The notes under the pieces are model-generated. The model saw only the letters and a program-made list of their open reading frames with translations, was not told the DNA's origin and did not search any database. A DNA stretch of 32,000 nucleotides from Phycisphaera mikurensis NBRC 102666 (GTDB taxonomy: Bacteria > Planctomycetota > Phycisphaerae > Phycisphaerales > Phycisphaeraceae), in NCBI RefSeq assembly GCF_000284115.1, contig NC_017080.1:2610001-2642000 (forward strand). The letters run 5' to 3'. Position numbers and translations under genes: made by a program. Shown here piece after piece: positions 199 to 22,929 of the stretch (position 1 is the stretch's first letter; every line of letters begins with the position of its first letter).

Positions 199-900
199 TC
201 AGCTCTGCTCGCTCTTGCGGATCCGCTCGTGGATCGCGTGCCGCGTGAGCTCGTTGCCGTTCTTGAGGCGCAGCTTCGCCTTGATCTTCTCGCGGTAGGT
301 CTCGACGGTCTTCACCGAGAGGTGCAGCGTGGCGGCGATCTCGCGGGAGCCCATGCCGTCGCCGATCATCTCGAAGACCTCCAGCTCGCGATCCGAGAGC
401 TGCTCGACCGCGGAAGGGCCCGGCTCGCCGTCGGTGCTCTTCTGCGTGGCGACCCGGGCGGCGGCGGCTTCGGAGAGGTACACCTCGCCGGCGGCCACCC
501 GCCGGACGGCGGCGACGATGTGGTCCGTCGCGAGGTCCTTGCGGAGGTAGCCCGAGGCGCCGGCACGCAGCACCCGATCGACGTAGAGGGATTCGTCGAG
601 CATCGAGCAGACGAGCATGCGGATCTTCCAGCCGTTGCCGTTGATCTGCTTGATGAGCTCGAGCCCGTGGCCGTCCCCCAGGGACAGGTCCACGAGAGCG
701 ACGTCGGGCTTGAGGCGTTCGAGCTCGCGGTGCGCCTCCGCGATGCTGGAGGCCTCGCCGACGACGTCGAGGTCGCTCTCGTCGTTGATGAGCTCCGCGA
801 GGCCGCGGCGGACGATCGGGTGGTCGTCGACGAGGACGACGCGGACGGTGCGGGCCGCGCCGGCGGGCGGGCTCTCGGGGTGGGATCGAAGCAGGGGCAT
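199..900 (-). CDS. Two-component response regulator, NarL/FixJ family (receiver + LuxR-type HTH)
   Basis: 233-aa ORF with ATG at 898-900. The receiver domain reads 'VRVVLVDDHPIVRRGL...PDVALVDLSLGDGHG...'. The C-terminal LuxR HTH reads 'LSDRELEVFEMIGDGMGSREIAATLHLSVKTVETYREKIKAKL'. It lies directly downstream of the kinase gene on the same strand. Confidence 0.9.
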   Translation of the reverse strand: MPLLRSHPESPPAGAARTVRVVLVDDHPIVRRGLAELINDESDLDVVGEASSIAEAHRELERLKPDVALVDLSLGDGHGLELIKQINGNGWKIRMLVCSMLDESLYVDRVLRAGASGYLRKDLATDHIVAAVRRVAAGEVYLSEAAAARVATQKSTDGEPGPSAVEQLSDRELEVFEMIGDGMGSREIAATLHLSVKTVETYREKIKAKLRLKNGNELTRHAIHERIRKSEQS

Positions 901-991
901 GGGCGGGGGTCGGGGGGGGTTCGGAAGCTGAGGGGCGGGGGCGGATCTTGACGTCGATCCAAGCAGGGGGAAGAAGCCGGGCGGAGGGAAC

Positions 992-2533: not shown

Positions 2534-2607
2534 CCCGTCGCCCCGCCGAGCCGAAAAGGGCCGGTCTGAGAACAGATTCAGGGGTCCCCCGATCTCGCCG
2601 CCGCCCG

Positions 2608-2835
2608 CTACCACGGCGTGCTGAACCCCATCGCCCGCACGGCGCACCAGCCGATCGCGCCCTCGACCACGCAGAACGCGCCGCCCGCCGCCGCGCCCGC
2701 CACCGCGATCCACCACGCGGGGTGATCCAGCACGCCCGCCAGGACCAGCATCGCGAGCACCACCGCCGCCGCGAGCGTGGCGATGCCGATGGCCAGCCGC
2801 CGCGTGCGGCCCGTTCTGTCGATGTTGCAGGGCAT
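2608..2835 (-). CDS. Small two-TM membrane protein, DUF2892/YgaP-like
   Basis: These 75 codons are the last 75 of the otherwise spurious 689-aa ORF 2608-4677. ATG is at 2833-2835 and TAG at 2608-2610. '[17 protein letters not shown]...' fits the N-terminal C-N-(V/I)-x-x-x-D-R-x-x-R signature. Two hydrophobic helices and a 'GWC' near the C-terminus also fit what I associate with DUF2892. Confidence 0.6.
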
Positions 2836-2991
2836 GACAGAGGTTACGCGCTGGCTCAGCCGGCCGGAGCGGGGGCCAGCGCCACAGAAGTTGCAGGTGG
2901 AGGGGGACCCGTTTGCGCATCCCGGGCGCGGCCGCGAGCGGGTCGGCCGGTGCATTACGCTCCCCCGCCGCACGCCGCGGGGTTGCCGCCC

Positions 2992-4626
2992 ATGAGCACC
3001 ACGCCCCCCGCCCCCGCATTCGACGTCACCGCCGACCTGCCGCCCGGCGTCGTCGGGCAGGCCGTGCCGATCCTGGATTTCGGCAGCCAGTACGTGCAGC
3101 TGATCGCGCGGCGCGTGCGTGAGCAGGGCGTGTACGCCGTCCTCGTCCCGCCGGACCTGCCCGTGGAGGAGATCGACCGGCTCGATCCCCGCGGGATCAT
3201 CCTCTCCGGCGGCCCGTCCTCGGTTCACGAGGAAGGTTCGCCGCGGCCGGATCCGCGGCTGCTCGACCACTACCTCGGCCGAGGCGTGCCGGTGCTGGGC
3301 ATCTGCTACGGGATGCAGGTCGGCTGCCAGCTGCTCGGGGCCGAGGTGCAACCCGCCGCGTCGCGCGAGTACGGGCGCGTGAAGCTCACCAGCGGCGTGC
3401 ACGAGGACGCCTTCCTCAAGGGCATCCCCTGCGAGACCACCGCCTGGATGTCCCACGGCGACCAGGTGAACACGCTGCCCGGCGCGGACTTCGTGCCGCT
3501 GGCGTCCACGCCGACCTGCCCGTACGCGGCCGTCCGCCACCGCACCCGGCCGTTCTTCGGCGTGCAGTTCCACCCCGAGGTGACGCACACGCCGCACGGG
3601 AAGGACCTGCTCGCCAACTTCCTCTTCGACGCCTGCGGCTGCGACGGCAGCTGGACGATGGCCGACTTCGTCGAGGGCGAGAGCGAGCGGATCCGGCGGA
3701 CGGTCGGCGAGGACCGCGTGATCCTCGGGCTGTCCGGGGGCGTGGACTCCTCGGTGGTCGCGGCCCTGCTCGCGAAGTCGATCGGCCGGAGGTGCACCTG
3801 CATCTTCGTCGACAACGGCCTCCTGCGGACCGGGGAGCGGCAGCTGGTCGAGCACACCTTCCGCGGGCACTTCGACGTGGACCTCCGCGTGGTGGACGCG
3901 AGCGAAGCCTTCCTCGCCGACCTCGCGGGCGTGACCGATCCGCAGGAGAAACGCCGAAGGATCGGCTCCCGCTTCATCGACGTCTTCAAGGCCTCCGCCG
4001 ACGCCATCGCCGGCGAGGGCGGCGGCGGCCCCGTGAAGTTCCTCGCCCAGGGCACGCTCTACCCCGACGTCATCGAGAGCGGCCACGGCCACACCGGCGC
4101 CGCCGCCAACATCAAGCTGCACCACAACGTCGGCGGCCTGCCCGAGCGGCTGGGCTTCTCGCTGCTCGAGCCGCTGCGGAACCTCTTCAAGGACGAGGTC
4201 CGCAAGCTCGGCGAGGTGCTCGGCCTGCCCGAGGCGATGGTCTGGCGCCACCCCTTCCCGGGCCCGGGCCTCGCGGTGCGGATCCTCGGCGAGGTGGAGC
4301 CGAGTGGCCTGGCGATGATCCGCCGGTCCGACGAGATCCTCCTCGAGGAGCTCGTCGCCGCGAACCTGTACCGCAAGACCGCGCAGGTGTTCGCGGTGTT
4401 GCTGCCGGTGAAGTCCGTGGGCGTCATGGGCGACGGCCGCACGCACGAGCAGGTCGTTGCGATCCGGGCCGTCGAGAGCCAGGACTTCATGACCGCGGAC
4501 TGGGCCCGCCTCCCCTACGAGGTGCTCGCGACGGTGAGCAACCGCATCATCAACGAGGTCCGCGGCGTGAACCGCGTCGTCTACGACATCAGCTCCAAGC
4601 CGCCGGCGACCATCGAGTGGGAGTGA
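2992..4626 (+). CDS. guaA: GMP synthase (glutamine-hydrolysing)
   Basis: ATG at 2992, TGA at 4624-4626, 544 aa. The GATase domain reads '[18 protein letters not shown]...GICYGMQ...FGVQFHPEV'. The PP-loop is '[10 protein letters not shown]'. The C-terminal end '[12 protein letters not shown]' is typical of GuaA. Confidence 0.96.
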
Positions 4627-4628
4627 GC

Positions 4629-5040
4629 GGAAGCGGGGAAGCGACGCTTGGTGTACGCGCGTGCGGAGGGGCTGCATGGACCGCGAACGGCGAGGCCGCG
4701 GGGTGGGCCGGATTGGATGAGCGAAGAAGCGAAGAAGCGAAGAAGCGAGGAAGCGAAGAAGTCAGACAGGAACAGGAAGCGGGGAAGCGACGTTTGGTGC
4801 ACGCGCGTGCGCAGAGGCTGCATGGACCGCGAAGGACGAGGCCGCGGGTCGGGCCGGGCTGGGTGAGCGAGGAAGCGAAGAAGCGAGGAAGCGAAGAAGT
4901 CGGACAGGAACAGGAGGCGGGGAAGCGACGTTTGGTGCACGCGCGTGCGCAGAGGCTGCATGGACCGCGAAGGTCGAGGCCGCGGGTCGGGCCGGGCTGG
5001 GTGAGCGAGGAAGCGAAGAAGTCAGGCAAGAGCAGGAACG
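4629..5040 (+). repeat. Three head-to-tail copies of a ~140-bp unit (4629-4774, 4775-4912, 4913-~5040), each ending in a short run of CGARGAAG octamers
   Basis: By hand alignment, units 2 and 3 differ at 2 of their first 109 nt, and unit 1 differs at roughly a dozen positions. The periods are 146 and 138 bp, a difference of exactly one octamer. Each unit contains the 12-bp palindrome GCACGCGCGTGC (GTACGCGCGTGC in unit 1) and a GACCGCG...CGCGGGTC inverted repeat. The array starts 2 bp after the guaA stop. Confidence 0.9.
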
Positions 5041-5068
5041 GCTGCTGACTTTCTGACTTCTTCGCTTC
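5010..5068. terminator. Candidate bidirectional terminator hairpin between convergent guaA and hisB
   Basis: There is a perfect 16-bp inverted repeat, GAAGCGAAGAAGTCAG (5010-5025) and CTGACTTCTTCGCTTC (5053-5068), with a 27-nt loop. Flanking octamer tracts of opposite polarity could extend the stem imperfectly. No classical U-tract is present. Confidence 0.35.
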
Positions 5069-5200
5069 TTCGCTTCCCCGCTTCTTCGCTTCTCCGCTTC
5101 CCCGCTTCCCCGCTTCCCCGCTTCTTCGCTTCTTCGCTTCCCCGCTTCCCCGCTTCCCCGCTTCTTCGCTTCCCCGCTTCTTCGCTTCCCCGCTTCCCCT
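5057..5200. repeat. 18 tandem octamers CTTCYYCG (variants CTTCTTCG and CTTCCCCG), a pyrimidine-rich microsatellite
   Basis: Counted unit by unit from 5057. The order is T,T,C,T,(CTTCTCCG),C,C,C,T,T,C,C,C,T,C,T,C,(CTTCCCCT). The last unit shares nt 5200 with the hisB stop codon (tca, 5200-5202). This array is the reverse complement of the CGAAGAAG/CGGGGAAG octamers in 4629-5040 and 27587-27626. Confidence 0.95.
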
Positions 5201-5823
5201 CAGATCGACCCCTTCGTGCTCATGATCTCGTCGCTCGTCACCGCCACCGCGGCCTTGAGCGCGCGGCCGAAGGCTTTGAAGACGGCCTCGGCGAGGTGGT
5301 GGTTGTTGGTGCCCCAGGGGCACTCGACGTGCAGGTTCATGCGCGCGTTCTGGCTGACGGCGACGAAGAACTCCTCGACGAGCTGGACGTCGAAGACGCC
5401 GATCCGCTCGCCGGCGATGGCGGGGTGGTCGACGCCGTAGGAGGTCCAGGGCACGCGGAAGACCAGCGCCGCCCGGCCGGAGAGGTCGAGGGCCACCCGG
5501 GCGAGGGACTCGTCCATCGGCACGTCGGCGCTGCCGTAGCGCTCGATGCCGCGCTTGTCGCCGAGGGCCTCGGCCAGGGCCTGCCCCAGGGCGATGCCGA
5601 CGTCCTCGACGCTGTGGTGGTCGTCGATGTGGGTGTCGCCGGTGCAGGCCGCGGCGAGGCGGAAGCGGCCGTGGCGGCCGACGTGGTGCAGCATGTGGTC
5701 GAAGAAGCCGACGCCGGTGCGGATCTCGGCGGGGTCGGTGCGGGCGCCCGCCGACAGGTCGACGGCCACGCGGATGTCGGTCTCTTGGGTCCGGCGGACC
5801 ACCTCGGCGTGTCGCGGGTTCAT
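5200..5823 (-). CDS. hisB: Imidazoleglycerol-phosphate dehydratase
   Basis: 207 aa with ATG at 5821-5823. Supporting segments are 'RRTQETDIRVAVDL', 'GFFDHMLHHVGRHG', 'DDHHSVEDVGIALGQAL' and 'NNHHLAEAVFKAFGRAL', the hallmark IGPD metal-binding His motifs. Confidence 0.96.
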   Translation of the reverse strand: MNPRHAEVVRRTQETDIRVAVDLSAGARTDPAEIRTGVGFFDHMLHHVGRHGRFRLAAACTGDTHIDDHHSVEDVGIALGQALAEALGDKRGIERYGSADVPMDESLARVALDLSGRAALVFRVPWTSYGVDHPAIAGERIGVFDVQLVEEFFVAVSQNARMNLHVECPWGTNNHHLAEAVFKAFGRALKAAVAVTSDEIMSTKGSI

Positions 5824-5832
5824 GCGGAGGTT

Positions 5833-7038
5833 CTACCGCAGACCGTCGAGCACCTCGAGCAGCAGGTCGACCTGCTCGGGCGTGCCGACGGTGATCCGCA
5901 GCCGGTCGGCGAGGGCGGGCGTGTCGAAGTGCCGGATCAGCACGTCGTTGCTCTTGAGGCCCAGGTACAGCCGGCGAGCCTCGCCGGGCCCGCCGGCCAC
6001 GCGGGCGAGCACGAAGTTGCTCTGCGAATCGAGGACGCCGAAGCCGCGTTCGCGGAGGGCCGCCGTCAGCCGGGTTCGCTCGCCGCGGACCGCGGCCCAG
6101 GAAGCCTCCGCGTGCGTGCGGTCCGCGAGAGCGGCGGCCGCGGCGGCCTGGGCGTACGCGTCGAGGTTGTACGAGTCGCGGGCCTTGTCCAGCAGGGCGA
6201 TCAGCGAGGGGTGGCCGACGCCGAAGCCGACCCGCAGGCCGGCGAGGGCGTAGCCCTTGGAGAGGGATCGCAGCAGCAGGACGTCGGTCCGGGCGTCGCC
6301 GGCGGGGGCGACCAGCCCGGCCGCGTCGGCGTCGGCGAAGTCGGCGTAGGCCTCGTCCACGACGAGCAGGCCCTCGAAGGCGTCGGCGAGGCGCACGAGC
6401 CAGGCGGCTTCCTCCCGGCGTCCGGAGGGCGCGTGCGGGTTCACGACGAAGCCGAGGCGAGATCCGGTCGCGTTCCACGCCGCGGCGATGGTCTCGGGCT
6501 CGGGCGGGGCGAGCGTGTCGGGGTCGCGCGGGACCTCGGTCGCGGTCGCTCCGTGGATGCCGGCGAGCACGCCGTAGAGCGAGTAGCTGGGCGTGGTGAG
6601 CCCGATGCCGCCGGTGCCCGGGCCCGAGCCCGCCGCCATGGGCGCCGGCTCGCAGAAGGCGGTGATGAGCAGCCGCAGGAGCTCGTCGCCGCCGTTGGTG
6701 CCGATCACGCTCTTCGCCGTGAAGCCGCGGCCTGCGGGGTGATTCAACGCCGCCGCCGCCGCCGCCCGCAGCCGGTCGGAGGCCGGCGGCGGGTACAGCC
6801 GCAACGCCTCCGCGGGCAGCGCCGCCACCGCCTCCAGCGCCCGGGGCGACGGGGGGTACGGATTCTCGTTGGTGTTCAGCTTCACCACCGGCCGCAACGG
6901 GCGGGCGGTGTCCGCCCAGGTCGGCTGCTCCCCGGGCACGTACGCGTGCAGCCCCTCGATCGCGGCGCGCGCCCGCGGCCGCGGCGAGGCGTCGGCGGCG
7001 GCGGCGGGTTCGGCGGGCGGAGCGGAGGACGACGGCAC
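5833..7038 (-). CDS. hisC: Histidinol-phosphate aminotransferase
   Basis: 401 aa with a GTG start at 7036-7038. Supporting segments are 'KLNTNENPYPPSP', 'YPPPASDRLR' and 'RSLSKGYALAGLRVGF' (PLP-Lys motif). The gap to hisB is 9 bp, so this is a hisC-hisB operon. Confidence 0.92.
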   Translation of the reverse strand: MPSSSAPPAEPAAAADASPRPRARAAIEGLHAYVPGEQPTWADTARPLRPVVKLNTNENPYPPSPRALEAVAALPAEALRLYPPPASDRLRAAAAAALNHPAGRGFTAKSVIGTNGGDELLRLLITAFCEPAPMAAGSGPGTGGIGLTTPSYSLYGVLAGIHGATATEVPRDPDTLAPPEPETIAAAWNATGSRLGFVVNPHAPSGRREEAAWLVRLADAFEGLLVVDEAYADFADADAAGLVAPAGDARTDVLLLRSLSKGYALAGLRVGFGVGHPSLIALLDKARDSYNLDAYAQAAAAAALADRTHAEASWAAVRGERTRLTAALRERGFGVLDSQSNFVLARVAGGPGEARRLYLGLKSNDVLIRHFDTPALADRLRITVGTPEQVDLLLEVLDGLR

Positions 7039-7235
7039 GCCGATACGTTAAAGAGTCGGCTCCAGCCGCCCGGGCCCGGTGCCGGCCGGCCGCGGCGCCG
7101 GGGAGCCCCGGGCCGCGGTCCGCAAGGCATCCCGGGAGCCGCTGAAGCAGCGCGGCCACGCCCCGCCCGCGGCGGGGGCTTCGGCCCCGCGGGAGCCCGC
7201 CGCGACCAACCTCGAAACCCGCGAAGCGGAGCAGC

Positions 7236-9531: not shown

Positions 9532-12500
9532 TCAGCCGCCGCTGGACTGCGACGCCAGCTGGCTGAGCGTGCCCAGCGAGGCGGACTGGTCCTGCAGCCC
9601 GGCGAGCACGCCCTCGAGGCCGGCGAACTCCTCCTGGAGGCGTTCCCGCTTGCGGTCGACGTTCACGTTGAGCCGATCGATTCGCTCGTTGTTCTGGCGG
9701 ATCTGGCGGTCGAGGGTGTCGATGCGGCTCTGCACGCTGCCGAACTGCACGTCGGTCAGCGCGTCGAGCAGGTTGTTGATCTCCACGGCGATGCCGTAGG
9801 TGGGCGTCGGCCCCGCGGGCGCCGGCTCGCCGGGCTCGCGGAGGGCGGCCTCGGCGGCCTCGGTCGCTCCGAACGCGAACAGCTGCTCCACCGAGGCGGG
9901 GTCGGTGGCGTAGGCGGCCTCGAGCTTCTCGCTGTCGATCTCCAGCTTCGCGTCGCTGCCGACGGTGATGCCGATCTCCGAGAGCGACTTGTAGCGGCCG
10001 GTGAGACCGGCGTTGGGGTTGATCACCGCGTTGTAGAGCGAGCTGCGGACGCGCTGCACGGTCGGGTCTCCGAGCAGCACGCCGCGGGTGTCGGTCTCCG
10101 CGTCGTAGCTGTCGAGCTCGTCCAGCCGCGACGTCAGGTCGTTGAACCCCTCGACGAAGGCGGTGACGGACTCGGTGACGGCGCCGCCGTCGGCGGCGAG
10201 GTTGATGGTCACCGGCTCGTCGCTGGCGCGGAGCAGGTCGATGGTCGCCCCGGGCACCACGCCCACGAGCTGGTTGCTGGTGCTGGTGACGGCGACGCCC
10301 TGCCCCCCACCCACGCCCCCGACGTAGGCCAGCGCGTCGCGGGCCTCCGAGAGGTTCTCCGCCCGCAGCGCGAGCCCGCCGTCGTCGAGCGTGAAGCCGT
10401 GGGCGGAGCCGGCCCGCGAGCCCGTCAGCGACAGGCGGAAGGGCCGTCCGGCGGTGCCGTCGTTCACGACCGAGGCGTCGATGCCGGCGCCCGAGGCGCT
10501 GATCGCCTGGGCGAGGTCCTGAAGGGTGCCCCCCGGGCCGCTGGCGACGTAGGTGCGCAGCGAGCCGTCGATGACGCTGGCCCCCTCGAAGCTGCCGCCG
10601 ATGCGCAGCGCGGCGGCGGCGGTGCCCTCGACGTCGACGATCTCGATCGCGTTGGCGCCGCTTCCGGTGCTCTCGATGAGCAGGCCGTCGCCGGTGTCGT
10701 TGATGCGGGCGCTCAGCGCGATGCCCTGCGCGTTGATCTTGGCGATCACGTCGCCGAGGGTCGCCCCGCTCTCGGGCACGCCGTCGGTGAGGTCGATCGT
10801 CCCCCGGCGGCCGTCGGCGTCCTGGATCGTGAACGTGCCGGCATCGACGCCGAGGCTCTGCAGCGTGGTGCCCGCCTCCGCGAAGCCGTACTGCAGCGAG
10901 CGGCCCTGGACGCGGCCGGAGCGGTGCTCGCCGGCGAGGCCTAGCTGCTCGGCGAGCACGCCGCCGGTGACGCTGGACACCCGCAGCGCCTCGTCGCCGC
11001 CGCTGCGGTCGATCAGCGCGATCCCGTCGCCCACGCTGTTGAGCCGGGCCTGCACGCCGGCGCCGGCGGCGTTGATGCGGTCGATCAGGTCGTCGGCGGT
11101 CTCGGCCCCGGCGAAGTCGACCACCGTCACGCCGCCGGCGGCGTTGCGGATCTGCACCTGGCTGCCCCGGGCCTCGGCTCCGGAGGGGTCCAGCAGGCGG
11201 CCGACGGCGGTGCCGCCGCGGGCGGTGCCGGCGAGGCCCAGCTCGGCGGCGACGCGGCCGCCGTCGGGGCCGCCGCTCACCGCGAAAGCGCCCTCGCCCT
11301 CGGTGTGGTCGGCGAGGATCAAGCGATCGTCCTGGAGGAAGGCCGTGGCCTTGCCGCCGAGCCCGGCGTTGATGGAGCCGAGCAGGGCGTCGAGGGTGTC
11401 GAGGCCGTCGAGGTCCAGCTCGAAGGCGCTGCCGTCCGCGGTCTCGACGATCAGGTCGGCGACGCCGTCCGCGCCCGGCGTTCCGCCGCCGGGCAGGCCC
11501 AGGGGGTTCGCCGCCGCGGCCGCTTGGTTGGAGGTGGTGAGGCCGGCCCCGCCGAAGAGGTCGGCAAGGGCGGTGTCCCCGGAGAGGGGCACGTAAGCGG
11601 CGCCGCCGAGGGCGGCGAGCCCGCGGCCGCCGAAGGCCGGGCCGAGCAGCTTCGATCCGACGCCGCCGCGGATCCGCTCGCCGGTGATCGTGCCGGCGGA
11701 CGCGGTGGCCTCGGCCAGGCCCAGCCCGGCGAGCGCGTCCGAGCCCGGCGTCCCGCTCACGCCGAAGCCGCCGCCGCCGGCCGTGCGGTCCGTCAGCTCG
11801 AGCCCGCGGCCGTCGGCCCGGACCGCCAGCGACACCCGGCCCTCGCCGGCCTCGTCGATCCGGTCGAAGACCTCGCCCAGCGTCGCCGCGCCCGAGAGGT
11901 CCACCGAGAAGCCGTCGCCGCCGGAGGTGGTGAAGGTCAGGTCGTCGCCGGCCCCGAAGCGGACGCCGCGGCCGTCGCGGAGGCTCGCCAGGTCGGTCTC
12001 GCGGCCGAGCGTGTTGAGGTCGCGGCCGACGATCTCGCCGTTCACCGGTGGCCCGTCGAGGCCGAGCGAGCCGACCACGTCGGCCTCGCCGACGTTGATG
12101 AGCTGCACCGTCCGCTCCGGCGTCTGGCTCAGGTTCGAGAGGTTGCTCACACGCAGACCGCCCTCGGTCACCTCCGCCTCGACCGCGAGCTGGAGAGCGT
12201 TGATGCCGTCGGCCACCTCCTGCAGCGAGGCGATGCCCGACAGATCGAGCGTCCGCGTCTTCTGCGTGTGGTCGATGATCTTGATCTGGCCCCGCTCCAC
12301 ACCGAGGCCGCCGTTGAGGGCTTCGAGCGGGGTGTCGTTGGTGAGCTTGGAGCCGTTCCGCGAGAACGCGAGCAGCCGCGGCTCAGGCGCGACCGCCTGC
12401 GTGCTCGCGTTGGCGAAGCCGCGGCTGACGGTCTGCTGGCTCGACACCAGCCGGTTGACCGTCACCTGGTAGTCGCCCGCGGCCGCGCCGGCCGAGCCGG

Positions 12501-12759
12501 TGACGGTCGCCACCTCCTCGTTGGAGCTGGTCGCGGTGGTCTTGTTGAAGGTGGTCGGCCGGGTCAGCTTCGCGGCGTCGAGCTTGATCGACAGGAGCTT
12601 CGCCGAGACCTCGTTCAACGCCGTCTGCGTCTCCTCGAGCTCGGCGTTCCGCGCCTCGACGCGGTCGACGCCACGCCGCTCGATCGCGATCAGCTGATCG
12701 ATGATCTCCGCGGAGTTGATCCCGCTGACGAGGCCGACACTGGAGGCGAACTGTCCCAT
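9532..12759 (-). CDS. fliD: Flagellar filament cap protein FliD (hook-associated protein 2), unusually long at 1075 aa
   Basis: ATG at 12757-12759. The N-terminus 'MGQFASSVGLVSGINSAEIIDQLIAIERRGVDRVEARNAELEETQTALNEVSAKL' is the FliD_N signature. The C-terminus '...FVEGFNDLTSRLDEL...RGVLLGDPTVQRVRSSL...YKSLSEIGITVGSDAKLEIDSEKLEAAYATDP...RIDTLDRQIRQNNERIDRLNVNVDRKRERLQEEFAGLEGVLAGLQ' is the FliD_C signature. The upstream part of ORF 9532-13083 is Arg/Gly-rich junk. Confidence 0.88.
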   Translation of the reverse strand: MGQFASSVGLVSGINSAEIIDQLIAIERRGVDRVEARNAELEETQTALNEVSAKLLSIKLDAAKLTRPTTFNKTTATSSNEEVATVTGSAGAAAGDYQVTVNRLVSSQQTVSRGFANASTQAVAPEPRLLAFSRNGSKLTNDTPLEALNGGLGVERGQIKIIDHTQKTRTLDLSGIASLQEVADGINALQLAVEAEVTEGGLRVSNLSNLSQTPERTVQLINVGEADVVGSLGLDGPPVNGEIVGRDLNTLGRETDLASLRDGRGVRFGAGDDLTFTTSGGDGFSVDLSGAATLGEVFDRIDEAGEGRVSLAVRADGRGLELTDRTAGGGGFGVSGTPGSDALAGLGLAEATASAGTITGERIRGGVGSKLLGPAFGGRGLAALGGAAYVPLSGDTALADLFGGAGLTTSNQAAAAANPLGLPGGGTPGADGVADLIVETADGSAFELDLDGLDTLDALLGSINAGLGGKATAFLQDDRLILADHTEGEGAFAVSGGPDGGRVAAELGLAGTARGGTAVGRLLDPSGAEARGSQVQIRNAAGGVTVVDFAGAETADDLIDRINAAGAGVQARLNSVGDGIALIDRSGGDEALRVSSVTGGVLAEQLGLAGEHRSGRVQGRSLQYGFAEAGTTLQSLGVDAGTFTIQDADGRRGTIDLTDGVPESGATLGDVIAKINAQGIALSARINDTGDGLLIESTGSGANAIEIVDVEGTAAAALRIGGSFEGASVIDGSLRTYVASGPGGTLQDLAQAISASGAGIDASVVNDGTAGRPFRLSLTGSRAGSAHGFTLDDGGLALRAENLSEARDALAYVGGVGGGQGVAVTSTSNQLVGVVPGATIDLLRASDEPVTINLAADGGAVTESVTAFVEGFNDLTSRLDELDSYDAETDTRGVLLGDPTVQRVRSSLYNAVINPNAGLTGRYKSLSEIGITVGSDAKLEIDSEKLEAAYATDPASVEQLFAFGATEAAEAALREPGEPAPAGPTPTYGIAVEINNLLDALTDVQFGSVQSRIDTLDRQIRQNNERIDRLNVNVDRKRERLQEEFAGLEGVLAGLQDQSASLGTLSQLASQSSGG

Positions 12760-12805
12760 GGCAAGAAGAAGCCCCGGGACCGTGGCGGAGCTTCGCTTGC
12801 GGGCC

Positions 12806-12834
12806 GTATCGGCCGGGGGAAGGGAGCGCCTTGA
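12806..12834 (-). promoter_or_regulatory. Candidate sigma-28 (FliA)-type promoter for fliD
   Basis: The minus strand reads TCAAGGCG-N13-GCCGATAC. The -10 part matches 7/8 of the consensus GCCGATAA and ends 46 nt upstream of the fliD ATG. The -35 part is weak, and the spacer is 2 nt longer than the enterobacterial TAAAGTTT-N11-GCCGATAA. Confidence 0.3.
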
Positions 12835-12905
12835 GGGGGCGGCCGGGCGGGAAGGCAGACCCGCAGCCATCCCGCACGGCCGGCGTACCCGCCGTCGGGC
12901 CGGCC

Positions 12906-13754
12906 CTACCGCGCCCGTCCGCCCGTTCCGCCGTCCACCTGCTGCGCTTCGGCCGCGTCCTCGAGCTTCTCCATCACCCGCTTGAGGTCTTCCCAAACCA
13001 TCATCCGGTTGTCGCGCGTGTAGGAACGCAGCACGAAGGCGGGTGAGAGCGTGGGCATGACCGGGACGGGCGGGTCGGTCCACCCGCAGCTCGTCCAGAC
13101 GCCGCGGAGCCGGGTGATGCCGGGAACCTCGCCGAGCAGCGCCTTGGCGGCCGCTCCGCCCATCGCCACCACCACCTCGGGGGCGGCGAGGCGGAGCTGG
13201 GCCTGCAGGGCACCCGCGCCGGCGGCGAGCTCGGCGGGCGAGGGGTGCCCGCCGCCCGCCGGCTTGAACGGCAGGCAGGGGCAGCGGAACACGTCCCCGG
13301 ACGCGAGCTTCATCGCGTTGACCATGCCGTCGAGCAGCTTGGCGGCCTCGTCCGCTTCCGCGCCGGAAGCCGGCGGCTCGTTGACGAAGAGCACCCGCGC
13401 GGGCAGGCCGCCGGAGCCGAGCACGGGCGGCTGGCCCCGCAGCCGTTCGGCGAGGTCGGGATCTTCCGCCAGCGCGGCGGCCAGCGCGGCGAGCTTCTCG
13501 GCGGGCGTGCCGCCGCCGAGGTCCCAGGCGGCGGCGGCCGGCGGCGGCGGCGGCGGCGGATTGGATCGGCCGGCCCGGGCCGCGGCGGGAGCGAGCGGCG
13601 GCGCGGACGGCGCGGAATCCTCCCTCGCGGCGGCGGGCAGGGCGACCCCCGCCGCCGGCCGGCGGAGCGGCACCGATTCGACGCCCATCAGGCGGTCGGT
13701 CTCGAGGAACTGCCGGAGGACCCGGGCGGCGCGTTCGGCCTCCATCCGCGGCAC
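12906..13754 (-). CDS. Uracil-DNA glycosylase superfamily (family-4-like) protein with substituted catalytic motifs and a poly-Pro/Ala N-terminal extension
   Basis: 282 aa with a GTG start at 13752-13754; an alternative ATG is at 13743-13745. The C-terminal ~150 aa align by eye to the family-4 UDG layout: 'LFVNEPPASGAE...' in place of GE(G/A)PG, 'VFRCPCLPFKP' versus KCRPP, 'PEVVVAMGGAAAKALLG', and 'ITRLRGVW...VMPTLSPAFVLR' in place of HPA. Confidence 0.7.
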   Translation of the reverse strand: MPRMEAERAARVLRQFLETDRLMGVESVPLRRPAAGVALPAAAREDSAPSAPPLAPAAARAGRSNPPPPPPPAAAAWDLGGGTPAEKLAALAAALAEDPDLAERLRGQPPVLGSGGLPARVLFVNEPPASGAEADEAAKLLDGMVNAMKLASGDVFRCPCLPFKPAGGGHPSPAELAAGAGALQAQLRLAAPEVVVAMGGAAAKALLGEVPGITRLRGVWTSCGWTDPPVPVMPTLSPAFVLRSYTRDNRMMVWEDLKRVMEKLEDAAEAQQVDGGTGGRAR

Positions 13755-13755
13755 C

Positions 13756-14112: not shown

Positions 14113-14329
14113 GCGCCGACGGTATCAGCGAGCCGTCGCCGCGGCCCGCTTCCGGTGCGTCCGCGGACCGTCGCCCGCCGGAGCCTCTGCGGCCGACGGT
14201 CCGCGGGAGGAGCGAGATTGACGATCGTTTACAATCTCGGAGCCCGGGTCCTCCCCCGGCGTTTCCTCCCTTTCCGCCTGGAGCCTCGTCCTGCTTCCGC
14301 CTTCCCGCCCTTCCCGCCGCCGCCTCGCG

Positions 14330-16645
14330 GTGCTGCTGGCCTGCCTCCTGCCCCTGGGTCACGCCGCCGCGGAGGTCGCCCTTCCGCCGTCGGCCCAAGC
14401 CGACAAGGCCCGCCTGGCGCACCTCTTCGAGGTCGCCGAGCGGCACGACCCGGTGCGGATGACGCAGGTGAACAGCCAGGAGCAGCGGCTCCAAGCGGTG
14501 CGCTTCGGACGCGGCACCGGGCCGGTCCGCGGCGAGGCCCGGCTGGAGGTGCCGGCCGACCTCCTGCCGCTCTGGAGCTTCTTCAAGCAGCTGCAGCTCG
14601 TTGGCGAGACCGCGGGGCTCTCGGTGGCTTGGCGGAGCGGCAGCGGCGCCGCCGGCGAGGCCTCTCACTGGTACCGAGCCGAGGGCCTCAACGTCTTCCA
14701 GGCGGGAAGCATTCCCGCGGAGCCCGGCACGCCGCTGACGCTGATCCTCCGCGGCGAGGGCCGGCTCGAGGAGGTGCGGCTGCAGATCGACGACAACGGC
14801 ATCGGCCCGGTCTTCGACGAGTCGCCCTGGTCCGCCCTCGGGGCCGACCGGCCGGTCGTCCCGGTCGGCGTCGAGATGGACCTCTCGGCGAAACGCGCGT
14901 TAGGCGGGACGACCCGCTTCGAGCGCGAGAAGTTCTTCCGCGTCTACGCGGCTCCCTGGGGCGGCCCCTGGGGCGTGCTCGACGCGGTGGCGGAGCGAGG
15001 GTTCCTCCCGGGCCGCCAGCTCTTCAAGATCGCGCCCGCGCTGGAGGTCGGTTATCCCGAGGACGGCCCCGGCAAGCCGCCCTTCCGCGAGGACCCCGAC
15101 CGCCCGCGACACACCGATCCGGCCTTCTTCTCCAGCGGCTGGTCCTGGCCGGAGGTGGAGGCCGGGATCGCCGAGCGGTACGCGGGGCTGGACTACGCGC
15201 TGTGCCTCGACGAGTGGCCGAGCTTCAACCGGCACGCCGGGCCCGGCGTCGTGAACAGCCGCGGGACCCCCGCCGACTTCGACGCCGCGGCGGAGACCGC
15301 CGGCCGGACCGTCAAGCTCGTCTCCGAGCTCACCGGCCTCGCGCCGGCATGGGTCGAGGTCAAGAACGAGTCGGACGTGCCCTACGAGTGGAGCTACCAC
15401 GGCGTCGAGGGCGTCGACGCCTGGGACCTGCTCGCCGACTTCCACGTCAAGGTGGCGGACGCCGTCCGCGCGTTCAGCCCGGGCGTGAAGGTCGGCGGCC
15501 CGACGTCCGCGTACCCCGCGCTCGCGGTGAAGGACTGGGCGCTCGCCCGCCGCCACACGGCGTTCATGGATGCCACCCGCGGCCGCCTGGACTTCTACAG
15601 CCACCACTTCTACGAGGGCGCGGGCCTGCTCTTCGAGGACCTGCGGGCCGGCGGCGGCGACACCTACCTGCTGGGCAAGGCGACGTCCTACCTCGACCTG
15701 CTGCGAGCCCACGGGGCCAACACCGGCAACACCGTGCCCTTCCTGCTGACCGAGTTCGGCACGCTCACCGGCGGTGGGCAGGACCACCAGCGGTGGCAGG
15801 CGATCCGCAACTGGAGCGCCTACCTCGTGCAGTTCATGCAGCGGCCCGACGAGCTGGACCTCTGCGTGCCCTTCGCCATCCCGCTGCTGTGGTGGGACCC
15901 CGACCACCCCCACGCGCTCTTCGAGCCCGACGGCGACGGGGGCTGGCGGCCGACGCCGATGGCGCGGTTCCTGGACCTCTGGGAGGGCTACGGCGGCGAG
16001 CTGTTGCCCATCGCCAGCGACGACCCGCTGGTGAGCGTGCACGCGGCCGGGGACGGGCGGACGCTGTGGGTGGCGATCAGCAACATGAGGTCGCGCCGCG
16101 TCGCGGTGGACCTCGCGGCCGGCCTCGCCGGGGCAGAGGTGGCGACCGCGGACCGCCGGCGGCTGTGGCTGGACCGCGGCGAGCTGGTGTGGTCGGTGGA
16201 GGACGCCGCGGCCGCCCTGGCCGCCGTCGAGCTCTCGCCGGAGGAAACCTCCATCCTGGAGATCACCCTCGCCGAGCCGCTGAGCCCGGCGCGGGTCCTG
16301 GGGTTGAGCCGCCACTACGGAACGCGGACGCTGCTGCGGACCGGCACGCCGCAGACGCTGACGGTCGGCGGCCCCGCGGGGGCCGCCGCCTCGGCCCTCC
16401 TGCGGGTGGGCGTGCAGCGTGAGAACGGCTTCACGCAGCCGCTGCGGGTGAGCTTCAACGGCGCGGAGTTGGAGGCGGACCTTGCCTTCTCCGCCGGCAT
16501 CCCGGCTTTCGACGCCTTCGTGACGGTGGAGGTCCCCGCCGGCCTCGTTCGCGAGCGCAACCAGCTCGTGCTCCACCAGCCCGAGCCCGGCGGCACGCTC
16601 GCCTCCGCGGTCCTGCTCGTAGAAACCGAGCGGCCGCTGCCCTGA
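14330..16645 (+). CDS. Secreted glycoside-hydrolase-like protein, clan GH-A-type TIM barrel (agarase-like size; family unresolved)
   Basis: 771 aa with a hydrophobic N-terminus 'LLACLLPLGHAAA/EV'. The candidate acid/base motif is 'WVEVKNESDVPYEW' (N-E), and the candidate nucleophile is 'PFLLTEFGT' about 130 aa later; 'FYSHHFYEG' lies between them. The start is uncertain. GTG 14330 leaves no charged n-region. In-frame upstream codons read '...SRPSRRRLAV', but the only upstream start-like codon is CTG 14291. Confidence 0.6.
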   Translation: MLLACLLPLGHAAAEVALPPSAQADKARLAHLFEVAERHDPVRMTQVNSQEQRLQAVRFGRGTGPVRGEARLEVPADLLPLWSFFKQLQLVGETAGLSVAWRSGSGAAGEASHWYRAEGLNVFQAGSIPAEPGTPLTLILRGEGRLEEVRLQIDDNGIGPVFDESPWSALGADRPVVPVGVEMDLSAKRALGGTTRFEREKFFRVYAAPWGGPWGVLDAVAERGFLPGRQLFKIAPALEVGYPEDGPGKPPFREDPDRPRHTDPAFFSSGWSWPEVEAGIAERYAGLDYALCLDEWPSFNRHAGPGVVNSRGTPADFDAAAETAGRTVKLVSELTGLAPAWVEVKNESDVPYEWSYHGVEGVDAWDLLADFHVKVADAVRAFSPGVKVGGPTSAYPALAVKDWALARRHTAFMDATRGRLDFYSHHFYEGAGLLFEDLRAGGGDTYLLGKATSYLDLLRAHGANTGNTVPFLLTEFGTLTGGGQDHQRWQAIRNWSAYLVQFMQRPDELDLCVPFAIPLLWWDPDHPHALFEPDGDGGWRPTPMARFLDLWEGYGGELLPIASDDPLVSVHAAGDGRTLWVAISNMRSRRVAVDLAAGLAGAEVATADRRRLWLDRGELVWSVEDAAAALAAVELSPEETSILEITLAEPLSPARVLGLSRHYGTRTLLRTGTPQTLTVGGPAGAAASALLRVGVQRENGFTQPLRVSFNGAELEADLAFSAGIPAFDAFVTVEVPAGLVRERNQLVLHQPEPGGTLASAVLLVETERPLP

Positions 16646-21981: not shown

Positions 21982-22929
21982 ATGCCGATCGACGCCTTGA
22001 CCACCCTGGCCGCCGTGGGCCAGCTGCACAACATGGAGAACTTCTTCTCCTACACGCCGGGTCAGCACTTCGCGATCTCGCAGATCCTCACCTTCGGCTA
22101 CGGCTGCTTCCTCGCGTCGCTGATCTACTTCCTGCTCACGCTGACGAGCATCCCGCCGCGCTACCGGCTCGCCGGGATCCTCTCCTGCTGCGTCGCCGCG
22201 ACGGCCGGCTTCATCCTGTACCACGAGACGCGGTACTGGCAGCAGACCTTCGTCTACGACTCGCTCTCGGGCCTCTTCGTGCGGAGGCCCGACCAGATGT
22301 ACTCCAACGGCTACCGCTACGTGAACTGGGCGATCACGGTGCCGCTGCTGCTCATGACCCTGATGGTGGTGATCCCGCTCGCGCACGCGGCGAAGCGGCA
22401 GAAAGCCGCCCGGCGCCTGGTGATCTTCGGGGTCTCGATGGTCTTCTGCTCGTGGGTCGGCGGCTTCTTCGAGGCCGACGGCCACACCGAGGGCGGCAAC
22501 CTGCTGGGCTTCTGGTTCAGCTACCTGCTGGGCTGGGTCTTCTACGTGCTGCTGCTGATGCAGGTTTTCGCGGTCATCGGCGAGGGGCAGAAGCACGTCT
22601 CCGCCGAGGCGGGCAAGCTGCTCAGGTGCCTGCTGGGCCTGTTCCTGGTCTCCTGGACGATCTACGCCTTCGTGCTGCTCCAGCCGCTGTTCTGGTGGAG
22701 CCCCACGAGCGTCGTGGTGCGGCAGGCGCTGTTCACGATCGCCGACGTCAGCAGCAAGGCGGTGTACGGCATCCTGATGGGCCGGCTCGCGGTGCGGGTC
22801 GCCGACGGCTCCAGCGGGCTCCCCAACGCCTACCGCTCGCTCGCGAAGTCGCGTGAGCAGACGCACGCCTCCGGCGGCTCGGACGTCGGCGTCCCCGCCG
22901 TGGAGACGCGAAACGAAGCGCCCGCTTGA
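21982..22929 (+). CDS. Type-1 (microbial) rhodopsin, NDQ/NTQ-clade-like, with helix-C motif N115-T119-T126
   Basis: ATG at 21982, 315 aa; an alternative Met18 is at 22033. There are seven hydrophobic helices. Helix C reads 'NGYRYVNWAITVPLLLMTL'. Helix F reads 'LFLVSWTIYAFVLL'. Helix G reads 'RQALFTIADVSSKAVYGILMG', with Asp255 and the Schiff-base Lys259 (AAG at 22756-22758). Confidence 0.92.
   Translation: MPIDALTTLAAVGQLHNMENFFSYTPGQHFAISQILTFGYGCFLASLIYFLLTLTSIPPRYRLAGILSCCVAATAGFILYHETRYWQQTFVYDSLSGLFVRRPDQMYSNGYRYVNWAITVPLLLMTLMVVIPLAHAAKRQKAARRLVIFGVSMVFCSWVGGFFEADGHTEGGNLLGFWFSYLLGWVFYVLLLMQVFAVIGEGQKHVSAEAGKLLRCLLGLFLVSWTIYAFVLLQPLFWWSPTSVVVRQALFTIADVSSKAVYGILMGRLAVRVADGSSGLPNAYRSLAKSREQTHASGGSDVGVPAVETRNEAPA

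What the first reader, a model, noticed from the sequence alone, without database searches (positions are those of the whole stretch)
21982..22929. Microbial rhodopsin of the Na+/Cl- pump (NDQ/NTQ) clade with an unrecognised N-T-T motif and no helix-F proline
Seen in the sequence: a 7-TM ORF whose helix C reads 'NGYRYVNWAITVPLLLMTL' (R112, N115, T119, T126) and whose helix G reads 'FTIADVSSKAVYGILMG' (D255, Schiff-base K259). Established knowledge: the three helix-C positions equivalent to bacteriorhodopsin D85/T89/D96 track function. DTD and DTE mark outward H+ pumps, NDQ marks Na+ pumps, NTQ marks inward Cl- pumps, and TSA/TSD mark halorhodopsins. From memory, KR2 reads '...NGYRYLNWLIDVPMLLFQ...' and '...YTIADVSSKVIYGVLLG...'. 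This protein therefore looks like a close relative of the NDQ/NTQ group, even in residue numbering (N112/D116/Q123 and K255 in KR2). It carries Thr where the clade-defining Gln sits. I do not recognise N-T-T as a characterised class. Helix F reads 'SWTIYAFVLL', whereas type-1 rhodopsins almost always have W-x-x-Y-P plus a downstream aromatic residue. There is a ~45-aa hydrophilic C-terminal tail. The window contains no retinal or carotenoid genes (blh/brp, crtEBIY) and no transducer. The host looks planctomycete-like. Inference: a neutral Asn at the counter-ion position argues against an outward proton pump. An anion pump with altered uptake-side chemistry, a different ion specificity, or a sensor are all possible.
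Basis: partly seen in the sequence, partly recalled or inferred. Interest (0 to 1): 0.8.

Follow-up and report, generated by a model that had tools for sequence, protein, structure and literature searches.

The report
Planctomycete rhodopsin with new N-T-T motif
This gene from the marine bacterium Phycisphaera mikurensis encodes a light-driven membrane pump whose ancestors pumped sodium; its ion-selecting residues have changed to an undescribed N-T-T combination that most likely makes it a chloride-type pump, so it looks like a natural switch of ion specificity.

Summary
Window 21982-22929 (+) encodes a 315-aa type-1 rhodopsin, 100% identical to the 'bacteriorhodopsin' of Phycisphaera mikurensis. 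Its best solved-structure matches are KR2, ErNaR and NM-R3. Ungapped alignment puts N115/T119/T126 on KR2 N112/D116/Q123, K259 on K255 and A229 on P219.

New findings:
- N-T-T defines a rare, conserved clade of 5 proteins among 5.8 billion clusters.
- In neighbour-joining trees the clade nests with 99% bootstrap inside a Planctomycetota group of NDQ (sodium-pump-type) rhodopsins. It does not group with the known NTQ chloride pumps.
- One relative carries the intermediate motif N-D-T.
- The missing helix-F proline is shared with at least 40 NDQ relatives. It is the already described red-shifting 'G/P colour switch'.
- Relatives sit beside blh (the retinal synthesis gene) and often beside a TrkH K+ transporter. 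The P. mikurensis copy has neither within 32 kb.

The clade lost the essential Na+-pump residue D116. It gained the N+T pair that binds Cl- in NmClR. It also carries Gly at KR2 F72 and a neutral residue at D102, the changes that turn KR2-D116T into a Cl- pump.

Best reading (about 0.5): an independently evolved inward anion pump. Function is untested. This is a new variant of a known kind.

The parts
21982..22929 (+). Rhodopsin gene (315 aa plus stop). Seven TM helices at residues 26-52, 59-89, 110-130, 136-161, 174-203, 208-231 and 241-276.
   Evidence: ORF and translation. PF01036 E=3.4e-25. 100% identical to the P. mikurensis protein. AlphaFold2 model pLDDT 90.8, pTM 0.85. Foldseek against ErNaR, KR2 and NM-R3: target-normalised TM-score 0.88-0.94, rmsd 1.5-2.2 A.
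22324..22359 (+). Helix-C motif codons: N115 (22324-22326), T119 (22336-22338), T126 (22357-22359). They correspond to KR2 N112/D116/Q123 and BR D85/T89/D96.
   Evidence: Ungapped HMMER alignment to KR2. MAFFT alignments. All 5 clade members are N-T-T. All 133 NDQ sequences in the alignment have D and Q at the second and third positions.
22744..22758 (+). Helix-G D255-V-S-S-K259. This holds the counter-ion Asp (KR2 D251) and the Schiff-base Lys (KR2 K255).
   Evidence: These residues are invariant in alignment A6 of 103 homologues.
22654..22677 (+). Helix-F W225-T-I-Y228-A229-F-V-L232. Ala replaces the conserved Pro (KR2 P219, BR P186). Leu replaces the aromatic KR2 Y222 (BR W189).
   Evidence: Ala is present in all 5 N-T-T proteins. 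Gly or Ala is present in 34 NDQ relatives. This is the known G/P colour switch (PMC8514524).
22174..22227 (+). Helix-B pathway-lining changes: G65 (KR2 N61), A72 (M68), A73 (V69), T74 (S70), G76 (F72), E82 (Q78).
   Evidence: Column comparison of N-T-T, NDQ and NTQ groups. G65, A72, A73, T74 and E82 are fixed in the N-T-T clade and absent or nearly absent from NDQ proteins. G76 is shared with 7 of 11 NTQ pumps.
22810..22926 (+). Cytoplasmic C-terminal tail (residues 277-315) with clade-conserved motifs G-L-P-[ND]-A-Y-R and [ST]-[DN]-[VI]-G-V.
   Evidence: Alignments. Low-confidence helix at 283-296 in the model.

Best explanation
The gene encodes a retinal-binding, light-driven ion pump. It descends from NDQ-type sodium pumps of Planctomycetota and has most likely been converted into an inward anion (Cl-/halide-type) pump.

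Shown:
- It has the KR2/ClR fold, the Schiff-base Lys K259, the counter-ion D255, R112 and a conserved retinal pocket.
- It belongs to a 5-member N-T-T clade nested in NDQ relatives.
- Relatives are linked to blh.

Inferred mechanism:
1. T119 replaces the Asp that must accept the Schiff-base proton for Na+ passage, so the sodium-pump cycle is lost.
2. N115, T119 and the protonated Schiff base form the anion site, as N98 and T102 do in the Nonlabens chloride pump.
3. After retinal isomerisation the anion passes the Schiff base into the cytoplasmic half.
4. That half is widened by smaller residues: T126 for Gln, G65 for Asn, A72 for Met, A73 for Val and A260 for Val.
5. E82 (Gln in relatives) probably pairs with R112 on the extracellular side.
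6. A229 and L232 in helix F tune colour towards the red rather than change function.

Physiological suggestion: anion import makes the inside more negative. In relatives this may be coupled to K+ uptake through the neighbouring TrkH, giving net salt uptake.
For: 1. Fold and catalytic core. W116, M153, W225, Y228, D255, S258 and K259 are retained.
2. N98 and T102 are the only residues contacting the Schiff-base Cl- in NmClR. T102D kills pumping (PMC4999514). The query has N115 and T119.
3. KR2 D116T alone is inactive. F72G/D116T and D102N/D116T pump Cl-, and the triple mutant pumps better (table in PMC10608830 citing Inoue 2016). All five N-T-T proteins have Gly at F72 and Gln or Met at D102.
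4. Na+-pump hallmarks are lost:
- D116 to T.
- Q123 to T.
- N61 to G.
- H30 to G or Q.
- S70 to T. The S70T mutation lowers KR2 activity.
- D102 is neutral.
5. Partial convergence with NTQ pumps at KR2 S60 (to A), V69 (to A) and V256 (to A).
6. The clade is conserved at 52-83% identity, with dN/dS of about 0.3 for the closest pairs. blh is adjacent in 3 of its 4 metagenomic members: P0003, P0005 and P0002. Blh also flanks the closest out-group rhodopsins in L008 and L009. This supports a functional retinal protein.
7. No transducer gene lies beside any member.
Against: - No experiment exists.
- The third motif residue (Thr, not Gln) and about ten other fixed changes are unique to the clade and have no characterised precedent. 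These include M68A, W170S, S270A and loss of the otherwise invariant Q157. Selectivity or even transport mode could therefore differ.
- Q78E adds a negative charge on the extracellular (anion-entry) side, which is not obviously helpful for anion uptake. It could also balance R112 without a bound anion.
- The F72 and D102 states are largely inherited from NDQ relatives (Ala or Gly, and Gln, Thr or Arg). They form a permissive background rather than specific adaptation.
- Two limited-sensitivity searches found no blh in P. mikurensis.
- The tree is neighbour-joining only, and the immediate sister group is unresolved.
- I could not read Inoue 2016 directly.
Confidence: 0.5

Rival explanations
1. 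It is a photosensor or regulator rather than a pump. Light-induced conformational change would be passed to a partner through the conserved cytoplasmic tail. A plausible target is the TrkH K+ transporter that neighbours several relatives.
For: - Neutral residues at both the D85 and D96 positions are also typical of sensory rhodopsins (established knowledge).
- The tail motifs GLP[ND]AYR and [ST][DN][VI]GV are conserved across the clade.
- TrkH lies next to the rhodopsin in L001, L002/L003, L005 and L008.
- The long stem branch and many clade-specific changes suggest a functional shift.
Against: - No Htr/MCP-type or ASRT-like transducer lies in any of six contexts.
- TrkH linkage is also seen beside ordinary NDQ relatives (L017, L019, L024). 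It therefore predates N-T-T and fits physiological coupling of two transporters.
- P. mikurensis has no trkH within 32 kb of the gene.
- The ion-pathway residues R112, D255 and the triad E19/E164/R247 are all retained.
Confidence: 0.15
2. It is still a cation pump (Na+, K+ or outward H+) that uses a non-canonical proton acceptor such as D255. The widened cytoplasmic entrance (G65, G267) would admit larger cations.
For: - It descends from NDQ pumps.
- KR2 mutations at N61 and G263 give K+/Cs+ pumping.
- TrkH linkage hints at K+/Na+ homeostasis.
- A published tree labels it 'PmNaR' (PMC7714340). This is a label only.
Against: - Every tested replacement of KR2 D116 (A, N, E, T) abolishes Na+ pumping.
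- All 133 NDQ sequences in the alignment keep D116, whereas all 5 clade members have Thr.
- H30, N61, Q123 and D102 are also replaced.
Confidence: 0.1
3. It is an inward proton pump, analogous in function to xenorhodopsin or schizorhodopsin.
For: There is no carboxylate at either the D85 or the D96 position. Inward H+ pumps have arisen several times in type-1 rhodopsins (PMC5118547 appears in the list; otherwise established knowledge).
Against: - No candidate cytoplasmic proton acceptor (Asp, Glu or a His pair) lies after K259 or near T126 in the sequence.
- The phylogenetic position is far from xenorhodopsins.
- The best solved-structure matches are all NaR and ClR.
Confidence: 0.07
4. In P. 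mikurensis specifically, the opsin is an orphan. Without its own blh it would be inactive, or depend on retinal scavenged from the algal host, whatever its transport chemistry.
For: - No blh lies in the window.
- A profile search of 5.8 billion protein clusters found no P. mikurensis hit.
- A pattern scan of GTDB genomes found no hit to the strain's genome either.
- The strain was isolated from a marine alga (title of Fukunaga 2009, cited in the reference list seen).
Against: - Both searches require shared 5-mers or exact peptide patterns and would miss a divergent Blh.
- The strain is pink and has a terpenoid cluster (PMC8882080).
- Codon usage is as optimised as that of fusA, and the sequence is intact, which argues for use.
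Confidence: 0.1

Closest known systems
KR2 and other NDQ light-driven Na+ pumps (NaR; PDB 3x3b, 6rex; ErNaR 8qle/9tbd)
   Same: - Best sequence and fold matches: E=1.9e-42, about 33% identity, target-normalised TM-score about 0.9.
- Same numbering register.
- N112, R109, D251, S254, K255, G263, the E11/E160/R243 triad and the B-C beta-hairpin are all kept.
- Phylogenetically nested among NDQ proteins.
   Different: - D116 to T, Q123 to T, N61 to G, H30 to Q or G, S70 to T, Q78 to E, P219 to A, Y222 to L.
- The residue aligned to D102 is neutral (Gln/Met).
- The F-G loop is 6 residues shorter and the D-E loop is longer.
- There is a tail of about 39 aa.
- The defining proton acceptor is absent, so it cannot work by the NaR cycle.
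NTQ chloride pumps (NmClR/NM-R3, PDB 5g28, 7vgt; Fulvimarina FR)
   Same: - N and T at the two positions that ligate Cl- at the Schiff base.
- Gly at KR2 F72.
- No acidic residue at KR2 D102.
- Same fold (target-normalised TM-score 0.94 to 7vgt).
- About 31-36% identity.
   Different: - Thr instead of the Gln that organises the cytoplasmic cavity IC3.
- Gly, not Thr, at KR2 N61 and at KR2 G263.
- No helix-F Pro.
- It does not cluster with NTQ lineages in the tree. Any chloride pumping would be convergent.
Engineered KR2 F72G/D102N/D116T chloride pump (Inoue, Nomura and Kandori 2016, as tabulated in PMC10608830)
   Same: The same three residue states occur naturally: G76, Q105 and T119. The direction of change is also the same, from Na+ pump to anion pump.
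   Different: This is a natural protein with about 25 further fixed changes, including Q123T. The engineered protein keeps Q123 and P219.
JsNaR and PoNaR, natural NaRs lacking the helix-F proline ('G/P colour switch')
   Same: Non-proline residue at KR2 P219. The expected consequence is a red shift: JsNaR absorbs at 550 nm, its G216P mutant at 523 nm, and KR2 P219A at 536 nm against 525 nm.
   Different: JsNaR and PoNaR keep NDQ. The query has Ala and also replaces Y222. Its absorption has not been measured.
Archaeal and cyanobacterial halorhodopsins (TSA / TSD motifs)
   Same: A hydroxyl residue one turn from a neutral D85-position residue, a small non-amide residue at the D96 position, and the proposed inward anion transport (established knowledge; motif summary).
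   Different: These are only distant homologues. phmmer E-values to halorhodopsin chains are about 5e-3. The anion-site residues differ (Thr/Ser against Asn/Thr), as does the B-C loop orientation.

Membership tests
Type-1 (microbial) rhodopsin, Pfam PF01036 | Profile match above the curated threshold | tested here: met
   89.3 bits against a cut-off of 24.6, E=3.4e-25, covering residues 33-271.
Type-1 (microbial) rhodopsin, Pfam PF01036 | Seven-TM fold superposable on solved rhodopsins | tested here: met
   AlphaFold2 pLDDT 90.8 with 7 helices. Foldseek target-normalised TM-score 0.88-0.94 and rmsd 1.5-2.2 A to KR2, ErNaR and NM-R3.
Type-1 (microbial) rhodopsin, Pfam PF01036 | Schiff-base Lys in helix G and aromatic retinal pocket | tested here: met
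   K259, W116, W225, Y228 and D255 align to KR2 K255, W113, W215, Y218 and D251.
Type-1 (microbial) rhodopsin, Pfam PF01036 | Covalent retinal binding and visible absorption | not testable with these tools
   Indirect evidence only. blh (PF15461) lies adjacent to clade members P0003, P0005 and P0002, and to the closest out-group rhodopsins in L008 and L009.
NDQ/NTQ ('NQ') clade of ion-pumping rhodopsins | Phylogenetic placement within the clade | tested here: met
   Neighbour-joining trees of 85 and 95 taxa rooted on DTE proteins. The nearest 160 or so homologues are all NDQ or NTQ.
NDQ/NTQ ('NQ') clade of ion-pumping rhodopsins | Asn at BR D85 and Gln at BR D96 | tested here: not met
   Asn is present (N115). 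Gln is replaced by T126 in all 5 clade members.
NDQ/NTQ ('NQ') clade of ion-pumping rhodopsins | Extracellular E11/E160/R243 cluster and N-terminal cap helix | tested here: met
   E19, E164 and R247 are conserved. The model has short N-terminal helices at 5-12 and 18-21.
Light-driven Na+ pump (NaR, NDQ) | Asp at KR2 D116 as Schiff-base proton acceptor | tested here: not met
   T119. KR2 D116A, N, E and T are all inactive for Na+.
Light-driven Na+ pump (NaR, NDQ) | Cytoplasmic uptake residues N61, Q123 and G263 | tested here: not met
   G65, T126 and G267. Only the Gly is kept.
Light-driven Na+ pump (NaR, NDQ) | H30 and D102 inter-protomer and Na+-site residues | tested here: not met
   Q34 (Gly in the other four members) and Q105.
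Light-driven Cl- pump (ClR, NTQ) | Asn and Thr ligands of the Schiff-base chloride (NmClR N98, T102) | tested here: met
   N115 and T119.
Light-driven Cl- pump (ClR, NTQ) | Gln of the motif (NmClR Q109) lining cavity IC3 | tested here: not met
   T126.
Light-driven Cl- pump (ClR, NTQ) | Descent from the NTQ lineages | tested here: not met
   The N-T-T clade groups with NDQ Y-A proteins at 99% bootstrap. NTQ sequences lie elsewhere in the tree.
Light-driven Cl- pump (ClR, NTQ) | Anion-dependent spectral shift and inward anion transport | not testable with these tools
   Requires expression and pH-electrode or spectroscopic assays.
Sensory rhodopsin | Cognate transducer gene (Htr/MCP-type or soluble ASRT-like) next to the opsin | tested here: not met
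   None in the window or in loci L001-L005 and L008.

The most novel reading that the evidence does not exclude
N-T-T rhodopsins may do something no characterised member of the Na+/Cl- pump clade does. One possibility is transport of a different substrate through the enlarged cytoplasmic half-channel, for example a larger oxyanion. Another is a role as the light-sensing partner of the neighbouring TrkH K+ transporter, acting through the conserved C-terminal tail. Either way the set NDQ, N-D-T, N-T-T would be a natural, stepwise series showing how a sodium pump acquires a new function.
Probability: 0.25. Interest if true: 0.85.

Novelty: new variant of a known kind. Interest (0 to 1): 0.62.

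Why it matters
Ion selectivity in microbial rhodopsins is read from the three-residue helix-C motif. Each new natural motif has so far marked a new function or mechanism (NDQ, NTQ, TSD, DTG, FSE).

What this case offers:
- An undescribed motif that arose inside the sodium-pump lineage, with living NDQ and N-D-T relatives.
- The same auxiliary substitutions that laboratory work needed to turn KR2 into a chloride pump.
- A way to test directly how, and in which direction, pump specificity evolves. The published 'asymmetric conversion' idea places Cl- pumps before Na+ pumps. This would be a natural Na+-type to anion-type reversal.
- A cultivated, genome-sequenced host (P. mikurensis NBRC 102666), so physiology can be tested.

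Other consequences:
- The protein is a probably red-shifted candidate tool for optogenetic silencing.
- The record needs correcting. The protein has been listed as an 'NQ' rhodopsin and labelled 'PmNaR', and neither fits its sequence.

Tried and rejected
1. Blh in P. mikurensis. A profile search with three clade-linked Blh proteins returned 5 hits, none from P. mikurensis. A pattern scan of 185,579 GTDB genomes returned 48 loci. None came from the NBRC 102666 genome. There was one MAG labelled with that name, which carries an unrelated rhodopsin of about 25% identity. Both methods need shared words or patterns, so absence is not shown.
2. More N-T-T members. Exhaustive phmmer over 1.84 billion representatives found only one other 50% cluster nearby, P0017 (NDQ). 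The JGI metagenome scan found no N-T-T locus.
3. dN/dS. Values are about 0.3 for close pairs and 0.5-0.7 for distant pairs. At 97% GC3 synonymous sites are compositionally constrained, so only the close pairs are usable.
4. Promoter and terminator consensus scan around the gene: nothing found.
5. tRNA and Rfam scans of the window: nothing found.
6. Inoue 2016 (PMC4858992) is not held, so I used the mutant table in review PMC10608830.
8. I rejected the idea that the missing helix-F proline signals a non-functional or mechanistically aberrant protein. It is common in the sister NDQ group and is a known colour switch.
9. I rejected recent horizontal transfer. Codon usage is native.
Full report
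**What is there.** Window 21982-22929 (+) is an intact ORF of 315 codons. Its product is identical over its full length to the NCBI protein 'bacteriorhodopsin [Phycisphaera mikurensis]', found on a 3.80-Mb contig. The window is therefore a piece of the chromosome of this cultivated marine planctomycete (class Phycisphaerae).
- The protein matches Pfam PF01036 at 89 bits, against a cut-off of 24.6.
- Its best solved-structure relatives by sequence are the sodium pumps KR2 (E=1.9e-42) and ErNaR, then the chloride pump NM-R3/NmClR (E about 1e-38).
- An AlphaFold2 model built on 103 homologues has pLDDT 90.8 and pTM 0.85. It shows seven helices, a B-C beta-hairpin and an N-terminal cap helix.
- The model superposes on ErNaR, KR2 and NM-R3 with target-normalised TM-scores of 0.88-0.94.
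- Third-position GC is 0.975, like the adjacent fusA at 0.983. The gene is native and well adapted.

**The motif.** The HMMER alignment to KR2 is ungapped through helices C and G. It gives R112=R109, N115=N112, T119=D116, T126=Q123, D255=D251 and K259=K255. In helix F it gives W225/Y228/A229/L232 = W215/Y218/P219/Y222. Two MAFFT alignments of 128 and 157 sequences agree.

**It defines a small clade.**
- A word-indexed search of 5.8 billion protein clusters found four close relatives, P0002-P0005, at 54-64% identity, all from ENA metagenome assemblies. All are N-T-T with Y-A in helix F.
- An exhaustive phmmer pass over 1.84 billion 50%-identity representatives found only one further nearby cluster, P0017 at 45% identity. 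It carries NDQ together with Y-A.
- A profile search then revealed at least 34 NDQ rhodopsins that also lack the helix-F proline. Those with organism names come from Planctomycetota or Verrucomicrobiota (MAGs and Rubripirellula obstinata). These proteins have Gly or Ala at KR2 P219, Ser at KR2 G153 and Ile at KR2 Y222.
- A Blh-guided look-up turned up one rhodopsin with the intermediate motif N-D-T, also with Y-A, at 42% identity (L008).
- A scan of JGI metagenomes found more NDQ/Y-A relatives but no further N-T-T protein.

**Phylogeny.** In neighbour-joining trees rooted on DTE proton pumps:
- The N-T-T group is monophyletic at 100% bootstrap.
- Together with the N-D-T protein and the P0017-type NDQ/Y-A proteins it forms a clade with 99% support (95 taxa, 263 columns, 300 replicates).
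- The immediate sister group is unresolved.
- The known NTQ chloride-pump sequences lie elsewhere and nearer the base.

N-T-T is therefore derived from an NDQ (sodium-pump-type) ancestor within Planctomycetota, independently of NTQ. MAG titles fit this picture. P0017 lies in a Planctomycetaceae MAG, and a protein 63% identical to P0017 lies in a Phycisphaeraceae MAG.

**What changed on the way to N-T-T.** Positions fixed in all five N-T-T proteins and absent or nearly absent from 133 NDQ proteins are, in KR2 numbering:
- D116T and Q123T.
- N61G, M68A, V69A, S70T and Q78E.
- Y154W, W170S, Y222L, V256A and S270A.
- Loss of the otherwise invariant Q157.

H30 is Gly or Gln. D102 aligns to Gln or Met. 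F72 is Gly. By helical periodicity, I infer that N61G, M68A, S70T and Q78E lie on one face of helix B. KR2 N61, S64 and S70 are known channel or site residues. On the cytoplasmic side the changes all go to smaller residues.

**Mechanistic reading.**
- All tested replacements of KR2 D116 abolish Na+ pumping (review table, PMC10608830). None of 133 natural NDQ proteins lacks D116. The NaR cycle is therefore excluded by inference.
- In the Nonlabens chloride pump, N98 and T102 are the only protein residues contacting the Schiff-base chloride, and T102D is dead (PMC4999514). The query has exactly this pair.
- KR2 D116T alone is inactive, but F72G/D116T and D102N/D116T pump chloride, and the triple mutant pumps better. 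The N-T-T clade naturally carries Gly, a neutral residue and Thr at these three sites.
- There is partial convergence with NTQ pumps at KR2 S60 (to A), V69 (to A) and V256 (to A).

I therefore favour an inward anion pump at about 0.5 confidence. Thr at the third motif position recalls the small residue (Ala) at that position in halorhodopsins. It would line an enlarged cytoplasmic release path.

Caveats:
- The Gly and neutral states at F72 and D102 are mostly inherited from NDQ relatives.
- E82 adds negative charge on the entry side.
- About ten substitutions have no precedent.

**Helix F.** The missing proline is real but is not a mark of aberrant mechanism. It is the published 'G/P colour switch' (PMC8514524):
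- JsNaR has Gly and absorbs at 550 nm, and its G216P mutant absorbs at 523 nm.
- KR2 P219A absorbs at 536 nm, against 525 nm for wild type.
- The paper reports that certain P219 mutations red-shift KR2 with no loss of Na+ pumping.

The whole Planctomycetota/Verrucomicrobiota NDQ group shares the substitution together with G153S, S174G, F178Y and Y222I/L. This points to a remodelled beta-ionone end of the pocket and probably red-shifted absorption.

**Genomic context.** In the window the gene stands alone. Upstream on the same strand is an endonuclease/exonuclease/phosphatase-family gene. Downstream and convergent is fusA. The other neighbours are housekeeping genes. There is no blh, crt, trkH or transducer gene.

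In relatives:

| Locus | Rhodopsin | Arrangement |
|---|---|---|
| L002/L003 | P0003 (N-T-T) | blh directly upstream |
| L005 | P0002 (N-T-T) | blh fragment upstream |
| L004 | P0005 (N-T-T) | blh overlaps the rhodopsin stop codon |
| L008 | N-D-T protein | blh follows the rhodopsin |
| L009 | P0017 (NDQ) | blh follows the rhodopsin |
| L001, L002/L003, L005 | N-T-T proteins | TrkH-family gene convergent, downstream |
| L008 | N-D-T protein | TrkH, rhodopsin, blh co-directional |
| L017, L019, L024 | NDQ proteins | TrkH follows rhodopsin-blh |

The blh linkage supports a retinal pigment. The TrkH linkage predates N-T-T. It suggests that these pumps are used together with K+ uptake. This is an inference and does not discriminate between Na+ and Cl- pumping.

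I could not find a blh in P. mikurensis, but both searches have limited sensitivity. The strain is pink and has one terpenoid cluster (PMC8882080).

**Literature.**
- No paper in the 8-million-paper library combines an N-T-T motif with rhodopsin.
- None combines Planctomycetes, NDQ and rhodopsin.
- This protein appears only in lists. Riedel 2013 counts it among rhodopsins with Asn and Gln at the acceptor and donor positions, which is wrong for Gln (PMC3587595). Konno 2020 labels it 'PmNaR' in a tree legend (PMC7714340).
- I found no functional characterisation. Subscription-only papers and supplements are not covered.

**Verdict.** This is a new variant of a known kind: a rare N-T-T lineage that arose from sodium-pump-type rhodopsins and is most likely an independently evolved anion pump. 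Interest is moderate to high because the case is clean, has natural intermediates and a cultivated host, and bears on how pump selectivity evolves. The function itself remains an inference.

Noticed in passing
L008:3600-7056 (Logan SRR26831644): An apparent operon of TrkH (3600-4985), rhodopsin (5053-5997) and blh (6001-7056), all on one strand. The rhodopsin carries an N-D-T motif with Y-A in helix F. This is intermediate between NDQ and N-T-T, and I also did not find it described.
   Followed up: partly
Proteins P0018, P0166-P0196; loci L010-L014, L017, L019, L022-L024, L090, L097: A large group of NDQ rhodopsins lacks the helix-F proline (Gly or Ala). Where an organism is named, it is Planctomycetota or Verrucomicrobiota. 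The group has a co-varying pocket set, in KR2 numbering G153S, S174G, F178Y and Y222I. Many members also have a 30-60-aa insertion in the B-C loop. No characterised member was found in the literature searched.
   Followed up: partly
L017:6001-9648, L019:4814-8275, L024:1022-3490: A TrkH-family gene follows rhodopsin-blh in ordinary NDQ relatives as well. Rhodopsin-TrkH linkage is therefore a recurrent feature of this lineage and not specific to N-T-T.
   Followed up: partly
window 22810-22926 (residues 277-315): The C-terminal tail carries two motifs conserved in all five N-T-T proteins, G-L-P-[ND]-A-Y-R and [ST]-[DN]-[VI]-G-V. P281 and G303 are kept even in the N-D-T and P0017 relatives. This suggests a binding or regulatory role.
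   Followed up: partly
window 9532-13755 (-): An unusually long FliD flagellar cap protein of about 1400 aa. FliD_N begins only at residue 344, and a flagellin-IN motif lies in the middle.
   Followed up: no
window 14222-16645 (+): An 807-aa protein with porphyranase beta-sandwich and C-terminal domains. This fits the red-alga-associated lifestyle of the host.
   Followed up: no
window 199-3025 (-): A two-component pair: a PAS-containing HisKA_3 histidine kinase and a LuxR-type response regulator. The stop-to-stop frame of the kinase overlaps the frame of guaA (2524-4626, +), so one or both start sites lie well inside these frames.
   Followed up: no
L112 (CAMBSR010000062.1) and L097 (CAZPQM010000031.1): Two public MAG labels look unreliable. 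A MAG titled 'Phycisphaera mikurensis NBRC 102666 isolate AE-24oct19-296' carries blh next to a rhodopsin only about 25% identical to the real one. A 'Rickettsiales' MAG contig carries a planctomycete-type NDQ/Y-A rhodopsin 85% identical to P0017.
   Followed up: partly
Literature: PMC3587595, PMC7714340: This protein has been listed as having Asn and Gln at the acceptor and donor positions, and labelled 'PmNaR' (sodium pump). The sequence has Thr, not Gln, and lacks the essential Asp, so both descriptions need correcting.
   Followed up: yes
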